From sequence record MT478991.1: DNA of 64,000 nt. The stretch is one strand, 5' to 3'. The DNA is from Escherichia phage vB_EcoM_011D4. The position numbers and the translations under genes are program-made. Under the pieces are notes generated by a model that saw only the letters and a list, made by a program, of their open reading frames with translations, did no database searches and had not been told where the DNA came from. Below, in pieces: positions 16,925 to 59,793 of the stretch (positions within the stretch are counted from its first letter, which is position 1; each line of letters begins with the position of its first letter).

Positions 16925-17512
16925 CTAAATATCTAACCAAGACAAGTCAGATCCGCCCAAGATTTTTTCGACGGCGGATCTATTTTCTTGATGATATAAG
17001 TTAAAACATGGTATCCCATGTCTACGGGCAACATAAACAGCAATTCGAGTTCCTCCAGAAACAATCCCATTAACTTCTTTCGCCCAAAATAACACACAAT
17101 CTACAGGATCATCAAGTGTCTCACCTAAGACTTGAGCAACATTTCTAGAAAACAGATTTTGCATGTATAACGGTATAGAACGAGGATTATCATAAACGTG
17201 TTCTAATTCATCCATCGCCAGATTTTTTTGTTCTAAGGTTTGCCATGCAATCACATCATGACCGTTATGCTTGTGGTCATAAAACTTCCAATTTGGAATG
17301 AAAATTTTTCTATAATCTGGATCGTAATACTTCATGAAAGCATTGTCCATACCGTAAGCCCCTCCAGAATGCGCTACAACGCGATTTTCTGACAATACCC
17401 TCCCAATGGTACTAGCCATTATCAAAATGTCGCTAGGCGCTTTTCTAGAGCCGATTAAAGCACATCTACGAAGTGGTTTTACTCCAAATAGATCTTGTAA
17501 CTGGTCAAACAT
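16925..17512 (-). CDS. SLOG-superfamily Rossmann-fold protein (DprA/Smf- or DUF2493-like)
   Basis: 195 aa; IGSRKAPSDIL...VVAHSGGAYGMDNAF resembles the DprA/SLOG GSR...SGGA.G.D core. Confidence 0.5.
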   Translation of the reverse strand: MFDQLQDLFGVKPLRRCALIGSRKAPSDILIMASTIGRVLSENRVVAHSGGAYGMDNAFMKYYDPDYRKIFIPNWKFYDHKHNGHDVIAWQTLEQKNLAMDELEHVYDNPRSIPLYMQNLFSRNVAQVLGETLDDPVDCVLFWAKEVNGIVSGGTRIAVYVARRHGIPCFNLYHQENRSAVEKILGGSDLSWLDI

Positions 17513-17666
17513 AATATTTCCTCCATAGAAAGCAATATCATACTACAAGTTAATAACAAATACAAGTATCCGCGTAGCGGAAGCGAGCACAGCGAGCAAT
17601 AAAAACACTTCCAGTAATTGATTAATAAATGTTCGAAACAAATTTTTATTATTCTATAAGATAAGT

Positions 17667-17870
17667 CTTCGTTTTGATCATAATTTAATCATACATGTAA
17701 AAACTACACAAAAGGATATCGCTTCGCGAACTCCTACGGAGTATAACATTTGTGTTACAATATGTAGTGATTAATAATTAACCAAAGATACATTTTCTAT
17801 GTTCTAAAGATCTTTCTTCGTTTTGGTCATAATTTAATCAAACAGTATTAATATTGTGCACATGTAAACT
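17667..17870. repeat. direct repeat pair in 414-bp noncoding region
   Basis: CTTCGTTTTG(A/G)TCATAATTTAATCA at 17667-17691 and 17816-17840, each followed by CATGTAAA(A)CT. Confidence 0.6.
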
Positions 17871-17893
17871 AAAATTATGTTAATAACAGATAC

Positions 17894-17918
17894 AAAAAAG
17901 CCGCCCAGAAGGACGGCT
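17894..17918 (-). terminator. rho-independent terminator (minus strand)
   Basis: Minus strand reads AGCCGTCC-TTCT-GGGCGGCT + TTTTTTG. Confidence 0.7.
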
Positions 17919-17926
17919 AATGTTAA

Positions 17927-18364
17927 TTATTTGTTGATAACGATCTGATTTCGGCGAATGGTAACATTACTCTTAGAGATGATCAGATCATCCGGCACTA
18001 CGTTAGTTTTGTATGGCTGGAAGCGAACAAGCATCTGATTGCGTTTAGACCCTTCCTTAATCTTGATTTCCATCTGGATATTGTTGCCTACGTGAGCAAC
18101 CGCAATTTCACCTTTATTCTCATAGACCCACTTGCTGGTAACGTCTCCAGCAAAAGCCTTAATAACTTGCAATGCTTCGTCATATGCGGTAGAGCTGTGA
18201 ACTTTCAGAAGACCAGCCGTAGCAAGACGGGAGCAGGTGATCGCCGGAGATTGCCAAACATCAACATTAATTTGCTCAATCAGAGTAACACCGCCCTGAT
18301 CAACTGCTTTGAATGCTTCGAACATTGCCTTTTTCATTGCTACGTGGTTTTTACGGAATTTCAT
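17927..18364 (-). CDS. hypothetical protein
   Basis: 145-aa ORF followed by terminator; no recognisable motif. Confidence 0.5.
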   Translation of the reverse strand: MKFRKNHVAMKKAMFEAFKAVDQGGVTLIEQINVDVWQSPAITCSRLATAGLLKVHSSTAYDEALQVIKAFAGDVTSKWVYENKGEIAVAHVGNNIQMEIKIKEGSKRNQMLVRFQPYKTNVVPDDLIISKSNVTIRRNQIVINK

Positions 18365-18883: not shown

Positions 18884-19043
18884 ACTTCACCTCATACATT
18901 CATAAACACAACAACGAATAGGACAGTAACAGTTATTAAAGCCATTTTCAACCCCATATTCATAATATTTTCTTCGCCTCACTATGACAGTAGCATGTCG
19001 ATGCGTGCCATTATAGGCATCTAAATCGCTCTGTCAAGCACTA

Positions 19044-19073
19044 AAAACAAAAAAGCCACCCCGAAGGATGGCT
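19044..19073 (-). terminator. rho-independent terminator after hoc (minus strand)
   Basis: Minus strand AGCCATCC-TTCGG-GGTGGCT + TTTTTGTTTTT. Confidence 0.7.
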
Positions 19074-19084
19074 GATAGATTTCA

Positions 19085-59674: not shown

Positions 59675-59703
59675 TGTTAATCCTCCGTTGTTTCGATGAG
59701 CGC

Positions 59704-59731
59704 ATTATACATTACCACATCAGCATGTCAA
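59704..59731 (-). promoter_or_regulatory. sigma70-type early promoter
   Basis: Minus strand TTGACA-N16-TATAAT. Confidence 0.55.
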
Positions 59732-59758
59732 CACCTTTTTCATAAAATTTTAGGCAAT

Positions 59759-59783
59759 AAAAAAGCCTCCCCGAAGGGAGGCT
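59759..59783 (-). terminator. rho-independent terminator after gene 32 (minus strand)
   Basis: Minus strand AGCCTCCC-TTCG-GGGAGGCT + TTTTTTAT. Confidence 0.8.
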
Positions 59784-59793
59784 GTAAAATTCA

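What the first reader, a model, noticed from the sequence alone, without database searches (positions are those of the whole stretch)
17513..17926. 414-bp ORF-free island with direct repeats between the SLOG-like gene and the next operon
In a genome that is otherwise tightly packed (many ATGA overlaps), this stretch has no ORF on either strand. It contains a 25-bp direct repeat (CTTCGTTTTGATCATAATTTAATCA at 17667-17691; CTTCGTTTTGGTCATAATTTAATCA at 17816-17840), each followed by CATGTAAA(A)CT, plus a GC-rich segment (CCGCGTAGCGGAAGCGAGCACAGCGAGC). It may encode a small RNA, carry regulatory or packaging signals, or be a scar of cassette exchange. In T4 the corresponding position after gene 24 holds other genes (rnlB region).
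Basis: seen in the sequence. Interest (0 to 1): 0.45.

Follow-up and report, generated by a model that had tools for sequence, protein, structure and literature searches.

The report
Tandem non-coding promoter–hairpin cassettes
The gene-free gap in this RB49-like phage is real and evolutionarily protected, and it consists of two side-by-side copies of a roughly 150-bp non-coding element that also sits in front of two late genes elsewhere in the genome; its exact job (short RNAs, a replication start site or a protein docking site) is still open.

Summary
The window is an RB49-like phage (Krischvirus). The island at 17513-17926 lies between ORF164 (DprA-like) and ORF165, both on the minus strand. 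It is real, and it is the longest stretch in the ~165-kb genome without an ORF of at least 40 aa.

The 25-bp repeat is the core of a ~77-bp AT-rich dyad module, repeated with a 149-bp period. Each module is followed by small GC hairpins. A profile search found two more copies in the genome: one between genes 35 and 36, and one upstream of gene 3. All four copies point towards the downstream gene.

Metagenomic relatives, with ORF165 at 56-92% aa identity, keep a two-unit, ORF-free island with compensatory hairpin changes. Across 13 Krischvirus genomes the modules and hairpins vary as little as codon positions 1+2, while the linkers vary like third positions. A neutral scar is therefore unlikely, and no conserved ORF, tRNA or Rfam family is present.

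In relatives the module arms carry near-consensus sigma70 promoter hexamers, pointing in both directions. In this window they are degenerate.

My best reading is ORF-less promoter/hairpin cassettes of the PeSL kind that make short non-coding transcripts. The main rival is a T4-style origin built from a promoter and an unwinding element. Function is inferred, not shown.

The parts
17899..17918 (-). T1: intrinsic terminator of ORF165 (AGCCGTCC-TTCT-GGGCGGCT followed by a T run). It contains a T.G wobble, so it reads as an RNA-level element on the minus strand.
   Evidence: 8 pairs, 6 GC, T tail. Annotated as a terminator in several records and in Nolan 2006 for RB49.
17768..17844 (.). Module B: a 77-bp AT-rich imperfect palindrome.
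   Evidence: nhmmer E=3.6e-18. 6 of 77 sites vary across 13 genomes.
17823..17851 (+). Promoter-like site in the left arm of module B: TTGGTC-17-TATTAA. It is degenerate here. The homologous site in relatives is TTGATG/TTGCTA-16/17-TATAAT.
   Evidence: relatives score 9.5-11.4. Sequence.
17757..17785 (-). Promoter-like site in the right arm of module B: TTGGTT-17-TATTGT. It points into the two hairpins.
   Evidence: score 6.0; L033_B has the same arrangement.
17731..17741 (-). Unit B hairpin 1: CTCC-GTA-GGAG, a C(GNA)G triloop.
   Evidence: The stem is replaced by ATCC/GGAT, CATGCC/GGCATG or GTGCC/GGCAC in other copies. 0 of 31 sites vary within the genus.
17719..17729 (-). Unit B hairpin 2: TCGC-GAA-GCGA, containing the GCGAAGC mini-hairpin motif.
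   Evidence: 96.8% of cells paired, and 2 of 4 pairs change on both sides (CG to UA, UA to AU). The motif is described in PMC13037366.
17619..17695 (.). Module A: a 77-bp AT-rich imperfect palindrome, paralogous to module B.
   Evidence: nhmmer E=1.8e-12. 3 of 77 sites vary. Third least stable 80-bp duplex window in the genome.
17674..17703 (+). Promoter-like site in the left arm of module A: TTGATC-18-TAAAAA. It is weak here. Homologues in relatives are TTGATG/TTGATT-16-TATAAT.
17651..17681 (-). Central promoter-like site of module A: ATGATC-19-TAGAAT. The homologous site is TTGAAC/ATGATC/TTCATC-17-TATAAT in L031, L028 and L027.
17583..17597 (-). A-type GC block: GCTCGC-TGT-GCTCGC. It is conserved in L007 and L026, and in variant form in L028 and L091.
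17569..17581 (-). T2: hairpin TCCGC-TAC-GCGGA followed by a T-rich tail. It is terminator-like and closes unit A.
   Evidence: 100% paired in 5 lineages, with a CG to GC double change. A hairpin-preserving +1/+1 indel occurs in L028.
17537..17565 (-). P164: a sigma70-like promoter for ORF164 (TTGTAT-17-TATGAT), overlapping the T2 tail. T2 plus P164 has the PeSL layout.
   Evidence: score 6.7. Homologues are TTGTTT-17-TATGAT, TTGTTT-17-TATAAT and TTGATT-17-TATAGT, read from the relatives' sequences.
17520..17524 (-). Shine-Dalgarno GGAGG of ORF164 (ATG at 17512-17510).
   Evidence: A ribosome-binding site is annotated here in Makalu_001.

Best explanation
The island is two tandem copies (unit B at about 17715-17860, unit A at about 17569-17710) of a clade-specific non-coding cassette present four times per genome. 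Each cassette is an easily melted AT-rich dyad with back-to-back sigma70-type promoter hexamers, followed on the gene-sense (minus) strand by two very small, very stable GC hairpins. Proposed mechanism, inferred rather than shown: host RNA polymerase binds the dyad early in infection. It then makes only short transcripts of about 50-100 nt. On the minus strand these run into the unit's own hairpins or T2. On the plus strand they run back into the preceding hairpins or T1. The island therefore yields small non-coding or antisense RNAs rather than mRNA. T1 and T2 insulate it from ORF165 read-through, and T2 plus P164 (a normal PeSL-type terminator/promoter joint) drives ORF164. In short, these are ORF-less members of the promoter/stem-loop (PeSL) kind of regulatory cassette known from RB49 and phi1. 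Shown here: the repeat anatomy, the four-copy family, its fixed orientation, conservation and purifying selection, hairpin covariation, and the absence of coding potential. Inferred: promoter activity, transcript ends, and any role of the RNAs.
For: 1. Family and orientation. A profile built from 11 units finds modules A and B plus copy C (between genes 35 and 36) and copy D (upstream of gene 3). Every copy has the order module, two hairpins, promoter and SD of the downstream gene.

2. Promoters. The homologous left-arm site scores 9.5-11.4 in six units from relatives (for example TTGATG-17-TATAAT). L007_B and copy D score lower, at 7.9 and 7.3. The central sense-strand site scores 7.6-11.4 in L031, L028 and L027. 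L007 has TTGACA-17-TGTAAT in both units. A real PeSL downstream of hoc scores 13.5. Chance gives 0.14 hits of at least 9.5 per 414-nt strand. The outward promoter of copy D faces a real gene, ORF127.

3. Hairpins. They are conserved as structures, with double-sided changes, whole-stem replacements and a +1/+1 indel in both arms of T2. T2 with its T-rich tail is terminator-like. A second terminator 330 bp after T1 only makes sense if transcription starts between them.

4. Constraint. Modules and hairpins have 10 of 217 variable sites, against 176 of 643 at third codon positions (p=9e-15). Linkers have 31 of 114, the same rate as third positions.

5. Persistence. A two-unit ORF-free gap of 326-600 bp is kept between ORF165 and ORF164 homologues in five metagenomic lineages.

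6. Precedent. RB49 and phi1 are known to carry about 50 promoter/stem-loop cassettes with demonstrated promoter and terminator activity (PMC2839356).
Against: In this window and in all Krischvirus genomes the module promoters are weak by a sigma70 matrix (best 6.0-6.7 against 13.5), yet the modules are still strongly constrained. Something other than plain promoter strength must be under selection there. The favoured direction differs between lineages: antisense in L007, L026, L027 and L033, sense in L031. The unit B hairpins have only 4-bp stems and an inconsistent U tail, so they are poor intrinsic terminators. None of the roughly 28 unit hairpins contains a G.T wobble, and 25 of 28 loops are C(GNA)G or its complement. 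That is the signature of stable DNA mini-hairpins rather than RNA terminators, whereas T1-type terminators here use UUCG/UUCU loops and do contain wobbles. No Rfam family matches. I found no transcript data for RB49-like phages. Nolan 2006 lists only T1 within the island coordinates searched (974xx-978xx); whether that paper's RB49 early-promoter list is complete could not be confirmed.
Confidence: 0.4

Rival explanations
1. Replication-origin-like element of the T4 oriF/oriG/oriE kind. An early promoter fires into an A+T-rich unwinding element. The transcript forms an R-loop that primes leading-strand synthesis. The adjacent C(GNA)G mini-hairpins extrude on the displaced or unwound strand and stabilise opening or mark a priming site. 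The four copies would be the (shared-sequence) origins of RB49-like phages.
For: [quoted passage not shown] Origins cluster in late-gene regions and near strand switches (PMC3016281). Modules D, A and B are the 2nd, 3rd and 10th least stable 80-bp duplex windows of 165.5 kb, 3.2-3.9 sd above the mean. RB49 has no MotA or middle promoters, so only early promoters are available. CCGAAGG and GCGAAGC-type mini-hairpins are known at single-strand initiation sites, namely the phage G4 origin and RSF1010 ssiA. 25 of 28 loops fall in the GNA class on one strand or the other, and no stem has a wobble pair, which fits a DNA-level structure (sequences). The three loci (around gene 3, the 24-hoc-uvsW region, and genes 35/36) lie within a few kb of where T4 has oriE, oriF and oriG; this last point is from my own knowledge of the T4 map. 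A relative (L090) carries an iteron-like array at the gene-3 locus instead.
Against: T4 origins share no sequence motif and have no such hairpins. The promoters in Krischvirus modules are weak. The tandem duplication has no origin precedent in T4. Composition skew is confounded by transcription direction, so I did not use it. The match to T4 origin neighbourhoods is only approximate, and large intergenic gaps are few. There is no replication data.
Confidence: 0.25
2. Binding sites for a dimeric phage or host DNA-binding protein. Under this reading the dyads are operator or architectural sites that control the downstream genes (ORF164, gene 36, gene 3), and their promoter-likeness is secondary.
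For: Each module is a dyad, and each arm is itself a 17-bp TGAT...ATCA palindrome. Primary sequence is conserved well beyond what structure would need (pi 0.011-0.022). Copies within one genome resemble each other more than orthologous copies in other lineages do: C and D look about 95% alike by eye, and the L088 D copy closely matches L028_B. That pattern fits co-evolution with a trans factor. All copies sit immediately upstream of a gene's own promoter, in a fixed orientation.
Against: No candidate protein was identified. Concerted evolution is equally explained by gene conversion in a highly recombinogenic phage. L007 has lost the dyad but kept the unit, and it carries a consensus promoter there. 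Fixed orientation is not expected for a symmetric site.
Confidence: 0.15
3. Non-functional remnant: decayed promoters and terminators left after loss of small ORFs (a PeSL-mediated deletion scar), or a selfish MITE-like repeat.
For: The region next to hoc is plastic. Phi1 and RB49 differ there, and L034 has a two-gene cassette inserted right after ORF165. T1 and T2 are followed by the same 17-mer (D2), as expected for recombining PeSLs. The promoters are degenerate in this window.
Against: Modules and hairpins are as constrained as codon positions 1+2, while adjacent linkers drift at the third-position rate. The layout is retained across lineages with 56-92% identical flanking proteins. All 58 matching records in the phage collection (all RB49-like by name, those fetched being Krischvirus) match at the island locus, and 57 of 58 cover copy C fully, so there is no presence/absence polymorphism. 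The D locus is also occupied in a 76%-identity relative.
Confidence: 0.07
4. A small protein gene, such as the hydrophobic 32-aa ORF at 17543-17641 on the minus strand that some annotation pipelines call.
For: The ORF exists and PHANOTATE calls it in FL38. Its peptide looks membrane-like.
Against: It has a TTG start and no SD. The homologous stretch has in-frame stops in L007, is read in another frame in L026, and carries a structure-preserving +2-nt change in L028. No ORF of at least 18 aa is shared across lineages on either strand.
Confidence: 0.02

Closest known systems
PeSLs (promoter-early stem-loop cassettes) of RB49/phi1 (Arbiol et al. 2010, PMC2839356; Comeau et al. 2014, PMC4122927)
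   Same: Same phage group. Both are intergenic repeated motifs that combine sigma70-type promoter hexamers, AT-rich DNA and stable stem-loops. T1 and the T2+P164 joint look like ordinary PeSLs, and the hoc neighbourhood is named in the paper as PeSL-associated.
   Different: Ordinary PeSLs are compact (about 100 bp from stop codon to start codon), have consensus promoters and G/C-tract terminators, and sit directly in front of an ORFan (examples). The island units have no ORF behind them. They are dyad-symmetric with divergent promoter hexamers, use 4-5-bp C(GNA)G mini-hairpins, occur in tandem, and two copies sit in front of late structural genes. The papers do not mention the 164/165 gap.
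T4 replication origins oriF/oriG (promoter plus downstream unwinding element, R-loop) and oriE (early promoter, iterons)
   Same: A functional unit of about 100 bp made of a promoter and very A+T-rich, easily unwound DNA. There are several copies per genome, in late-gene regions.
   Different: T4 origins share no sequence and lack the hairpins. oriF and oriG use MotA-dependent promoters, which RB49 does not have. No replication evidence exists for the elements described here.
Short antisense or terminator-bounded phage RNAs such as lambda OOP (my own knowledge)
   Same: A promoter facing the 3' end and terminator hairpin of the upstream gene would give an RNA of about 60-70 nt, antisense to that gene's end. 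This applies to unit B against ORF165 and copy C against gene 35.
   Different: No transcript has been shown. The promoter is weak in this genome. T1 read in reverse has no good U tract.
DNA mini-hairpins d(GCGAAGC)/CCGAAGG at single-strand initiation sites (G4 origin, RSF1010 ssiA; review PMC13037366)
   Same: Identical heptamers and the same C(GNA)G loop class, kept through several loop substitutions.
   Different: Those systems act on single-stranded replicons with dedicated primases. Here the motifs lie in a double-stranded T4-like genome, and no role for them has been tested.

Membership tests
PeSL (RB49/phi1 promoter-early stem-loop cassette) | Repeated intergenic motif | tested here: met
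   Four copies per genome, all intergenic.
PeSL (RB49/phi1 promoter-early stem-loop cassette) | Sequence matching the E. coli sigma70 -35/-10 consensus | tested here: inconclusive
   In this window the modules score at most 6.0 and P164 scores 6.7, against 13.5-14.5 for true PeSLs. Homologous sites in relatives score 9.5-11.4.
PeSL (RB49/phi1 promoter-early stem-loop cassette) | Stable stem-loop acting as terminator, often with G and C tracts | tested here: inconclusive
   T1 fits. T2 is terminator-like. The unit B hairpins are 4-bp C(GNA)G mini-hairpins, not G/C-tract terminators.
PeSL (RB49/phi1 promoter-early stem-loop cassette) | SD and start codon of a downstream ORF(an) at the 3' end | tested here: not met
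   Met only by T2+P164 in front of ORF164. Unit B and the module of unit A have no ORF behind them.
T4-type R-loop origin (oriF/oriG) | Promoter immediately upstream of an A+T-rich unwinding element, within about 100 bp | tested here: met
   Promoter-like hexamers are present, and the modules are among the least stable duplex windows in the genome. The promoter is sigma70-type, not MotA-type.
T4-type R-loop origin (oriF/oriG) | Persistent R-loop and infection-dependent autonomous replication | not testable with these tools
   Needs wet-lab assays.
Bacterial/phage small RNA gene | Own promoter and intrinsic terminator bounding a 50-300-nt transcript | tested here: inconclusive
   Unit A ends in T2. 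Unit B has no clear terminator. Promoter strength and direction vary by lineage.
Bacterial/phage small RNA gene | Conserved secondary structure with covariation | tested here: met
   Holds for the short hairpins only. The long dyad shows no strand preference in folding energy and is lost in L007.
Bacterial/phage small RNA gene | Match to a described RNA family | tested here: not met
   No Rfam hit at gathering score; the best E-value is 0.08, far below threshold. No tRNA or tmRNA.
MITE/REP-like mobile repeat | Presence/absence polymorphism between close genomes | tested here: not met
   All 58 matching records carry the island locus, and 57 of 58 cover copy C fully. The D locus is also occupied in L088.
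Small protein / type I toxin-like ORF | Reading frame conserved in relatives | tested here: not met
   Stops, frame changes and +2-nt structure-preserving indels.

The most novel reading that the evidence does not exclude
The four copies of this element are the replication origins of RB49-like phages. They would form a sequence-defined origin family: an early promoter, an extremely unstable A+T dyad, and C(GNA)G DNA mini-hairpins. It would replace the MotA-dependent origins of T4, with the 164/165 island as a doubled origin next to the capsid genes.
Probability: 0.2. Interest if true: 0.7.

Novelty: new variant of a known kind. Interest (0 to 1): 0.45.

Why it matters
RB49-like phages lack the MotA middle-mode system on which T4's best-understood origins depend, and I am not aware of any mapped origins or non-coding RNAs for them. 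This element family accounts for three of the five largest gene-free gaps in the genome. It is held under selection as strong as that on protein sequence. It also pairs the most meltable DNA in the genome with hairpin motifs known from single-strand initiation sites. Whether it makes small RNAs or starts replication, it is a compact and experimentally tractable handle on how this widely used therapy-phage group organises early events. It also extends the PeSL idea from gene-shuffling joints to ORF-less, conserved cassettes.

Tried and rejected
1. Known RNAs. Rfam searches (E-value mode on the island; gathering mode on relatives and the other two loci) and ARAGORN gave nothing.

2. Small protein. 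Rejected by comparing frames across relatives.

3. A single long RNA hairpin formed by the dyad. Folding energies show no strand bias, z-scores are inconsistent, and the dyad is lost in L007.

4. More relatives by DNA pattern. TTCGCGAAGCGATATC in IMG/VR found only 3 true loci among 15. A 20-base gapped pattern in the metagenome collection found only 2 true loci, both near-identical Krischvirus, among 40. A module-plus-hairpin pattern in IMG/VR found 0 true loci among 7. The family seems confined to this clade.

5. blastn of the island against 50,697 phage records. The only hit outside RB49-like phages was a 32-nt match to a Vibrio phage within the T1 terminator region.

6. Literature on RB49 or Krischvirus transcriptomes and small RNAs. 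Nothing found.

7. Matches to known transcription-factor boxes (Fur, ArgR, LexA, DnaA, PurR, TyrR, IHF), by eye only. No convincing or consistent match, so not pursued.

8. Late promoters. TATAAATA follows copy C and AATAAATA follows copy D, but neither occurs in the island, so the element is not simply a late-promoter accessory.

9. GC skew as an origin test. Not used, because it is confounded by strand switches in transcription.

10. TRF does not report the 149-bp period, because the identity is too low outside the module.

Full report
**Context.** The 651 bases around the finding match 58 phage records at 95-99.8% identity. All are RB49-like by name, and those whose records I fetched are classified as Krischvirus. 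In RB49 and phi1 the island lies between ORF164c and ORF165c, downstream of gene 24 and before 24.3 and hoc. Both flanking genes are on the window's minus strand. ORF164 (16925-17512) is DprA-like (phrog_768, E=2e-60; weak PF02481). ORF165 (17927-18364) has no known domain.

**Observation.**
- The similarity extends to about 77 bp (17619-17695 against 17768-17844, 77% identity, period 149), and each copy is an imperfect palindrome.
- No ORF of at least 40 aa lies in 17529-17926 in any frame. This is the longest such stretch in the roughly 165.5-kb genome, which I reconstructed from the window plus phage Whisky.
- Island GC is 26-30% against 40% for the genome.

**Anatomy on the minus strand, the sense of the flanking genes**.
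- ORF165 stop, then a strong terminator T1 (17918-17899).
- About 50 nt of unconstrained AT-rich DNA.
- Module B (17844-17768), then about 25 nt of linker.
- Hairpin CTCC-GTA-GGAG (17741-17731) and hairpin TCGC-GAA-GCGA (17729-17719).
- Module A (17695-17619), then a linker.
- The GC block GCTCGCTGTGCTCGC (17597-17583) and hairpin T2, TCCGC-TAC-GCGGA (17581-17569), with a T-rich tail.
- TTGTAT-17-TATGAT (P164, 17565-17537), GGAGG, and the ATG of ORF164.

**A dispersed family.**
- An nhmmer profile of the module, built from 11 units of the window and its relatives, finds two further copies in the genome.
- Copy C lies between gene 35 and gene 36. Its order is terminator, module, GTGCC-TCC-GGCAC, TCGC-GAA-GCGA, TATAAATA, SD, ATG.
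- Copy D lies upstream of gene 3. Its order is module, GTGCC-TAC-GGCAC, GTCGC-AAA-GCGAC, AATAAATA, SD, ATG.
- All four copies have the same orientation relative to the downstream gene.
- The D and C gaps (189 and 160 bp) are themselves among the five largest ORF-free stretches.
- All 58 matching records carry copy C, 57 of them across the full query.

**Relatives.**
- Homologues of ORF165 at 56-92% identity exist only in metagenome assemblies.
- In five lineages with enough sequence (L007, L026, L028/L029, L031, L033), an ORF-free gap of 326-600 bp with two tandem units separates the ORF165 and ORF164 homologues.
- The B-type and A-type 3' parts stay distinct across lineages. Modules within one genome resemble each other closely, which indicates concerted evolution.
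- The same holds at the gene-3 locus: the D-type copy in L088 closely matches the island module of that lineage.
- L034 carries a two-gene insertion between ORF165 and T1, which shows the plasticity of the site.

**Selection.**
- In an alignment of 13 Krischvirus genomes, modules and hairpins have 10 variable sites out of 217. Unit B's hairpins have 0 of 31 and module A has 3 of 77.
- This is indistinguishable from codon positions 1+2 (51 of 1286, p=0.71). It is far below third positions (176 of 643, p=9e-15).
- Island linkers have 31 of 114 variable sites, the same rate as third positions.
- A neutral scar is therefore very unlikely.

**No coding and no known RNA.**
- No ORF of at least 18 aa is shared between lineages.
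- The 32-aa ORF that some pipelines call is interrupted in L007, is read in another frame in L026, and is shifted by a stem-preserving +1/+1 indel in L028.
- Rfam and ARAGORN find nothing.

**Promoter content.**
- A sigma70 matrix scan shows that the left arm of the module is a near-consensus promoter pointing away from the downstream gene, that is, on the window's + strand, in most units from relatives.
- Examples: TTGATG-17-TATAAT (11.4), TTGCTA-17-TATAAT (11.2), TTGATG-16-TATAAT (10.4, twice), TTGATC-17-TATATT (9.8) and TTGATT-16-TATAAT (9.5).
- A second, sense-strand promoter shares the same -35 region: TTGAAC-17-TATAAT (11.4 in L031), and ATGATC or TTCATC-17-TATAAT (7.6-8.0).
- L007 has TTGACA-17-TGTAAT in both units.
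- Chance gives 0.14 hits of at least 9.5 per island-sized strand.
- In copy D the outward promoter faces a real gene, ORF127.
- In this window the homologous sites are degenerate: TTGGTC-17-TATTAA, TTGATC-18-TAAAAA and ATGATC-19-TAGAAT. None scores above 6.7, whereas true PeSL promoters nearby score 13.5-14.5.

**Hairpins.**
- Hairpin 2 is paired in 96.8% of cells, and two of its four pairs change on both sides.
- T2 is paired in all five lineages, with a CG to GC swap.
- The stem of hairpin 1 is replaced outright between copies.
- Counting about 28 unit hairpins by eye in those sequences, 25 have a C(GNA)G loop or its complement (GTA, GAA, GGA, GCA in either orientation). One has GATA and two have AAA/TTT. 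None has a G.T wobble.
- By contrast, T1-type terminators use UUCG/UUCU loops and do contain wobble pairs.
- GCGAAGC and CCGAAGG are the classic, very stable DNA mini-hairpins found at the G4 origin and at RSF1010 ssiA (PMC13037366).
- Modules D, A and B are the 2nd, 3rd and 10th least stable 80-bp duplex windows of the genome.

**Interpretation.**
- The well-supported statement is that the island is a tandem pair of a conserved, selected, non-coding cis-element, built from a promoter-bearing AT-rich dyad and stable small hairpins.
- I favour (0.4) the reading that these are ORF-less relatives of the PeSL promoter/terminator cassettes already shown to work in RB49 and phi1. They would produce short transcripts bounded by the hairpins, T1 and T2.
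- This reading uses only elements known to act in this phage group. It also explains why a second terminator (T2) follows T1 with no gene between them, and why orientation is fixed.
- The main rival (0.25) is a T4-style origin made of a promoter and an unwinding element. It better explains the DNA-type hairpin loops, the extreme duplex instability, the constraint despite weak promoters, the location of the loci in late-gene regions, and the iteron array at the gene-3 locus of another relative.
- A protein-binding dyad (0.15) cannot be excluded.
- The scar and small-protein readings are disfavoured.

**Limits.**
- All functional statements are inferences from sequence.
- The relatives are few (five to seven lineages), so the covariation statistics are modest.
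- Promoter scores come from a simple matrix.
- The positions of T4 origins relative to these loci rest on my own knowledge of the T4 map plus the qualitative statements in PMC3016281.

Noticed in passing
L034:3439-4347 (metagenomic relative): A two-gene cassette is inserted between the ORF165 stop and the usual T1 terminator. It encodes a 197-aa protein with a CapR-homology / treble-clef zinc-finger domain (PF21817, E=3e-7) and a 73-aa ORF. The cassette has its own terminator upstream. It looks like a mobile or PeSL-type cassette insertion at this plastic site.
   Followed up: partly
L090:1440-2000 (metagenomic relative, upstream of gene 3): The gap upstream of gene 3 is 560 bp. It holds an iteron-like cluster: 10 of the 19 TAATCGCT-like 8-mers (at most 1 mismatch) in the locus fall within 1553-1711, and none of 200 shuffles reaches 19. 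There is no AT-rich module at this site. This is reminiscent of the iterons at T4 oriE.
   Followed up: partly
Whisky MZ504878: L039:6579-6780 (gene 35/36 gap) and L038:13706-13894 (gene 3 / ORF127 gap): Copies C and D of the same element appear about 95% identical to each other by eye. Each sits directly upstream of a late-promoter-like TATAAATA or AATAAATA. The outward promoter-like site of copy D (TTGGTT-17-TATATT) faces ORF127.
   Followed up: yes
window 18960-19084 (-), 59700-59790 (-); L037:47740-47810 (-): Textbook PeSLs: a stop codon, a G/C-rich terminator with a UUCG-type loop, TTGACA-16/17-TATAAT, SD and ATG. I used them as positive controls. Of the promoter hits scoring at least 11 in the window, 45 of 48 are on the minus strand.
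   Followed up: partly
L037:47810-47990 (Whisky, outside the window): A stretch of about 180 bp with no ORF of at least 40 aa, which does not look AT-rich by eye, lies just upstream of a normal PeSL. It is unlike the island and might be a pseudogene or a structured RNA.
   Followed up: no
whole genome (window + Whisky pieces): The heptamer GCGAAGC occurs 27 times on both strands combined, against about 9.5 expected from base composition. Most occurrences appear to fall within annotated genes, which I did not tabulate. The composite used for this count double-counted about 1.2 kb.
   Followed up: no
window 17879-17895 and 17549-17565: The same 17-mer (GTTAATAACARATACAA on the + strand) follows both T1 and T2 on the minus strand. 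The island is therefore bracketed by direct repeats 330 bp apart, the geometry PeSL-mediated recombination would use. Relative L007 shows a similar pair.
   Followed up: partly
window 20608 (+): A consensus promoter TTGACA-16-TATAAT on the + strand, one of only three strong + strand hits in 64 kb. It lies in the hoc-inh region, roughly 3 kb upstream of uvsW.
   Followed up: no
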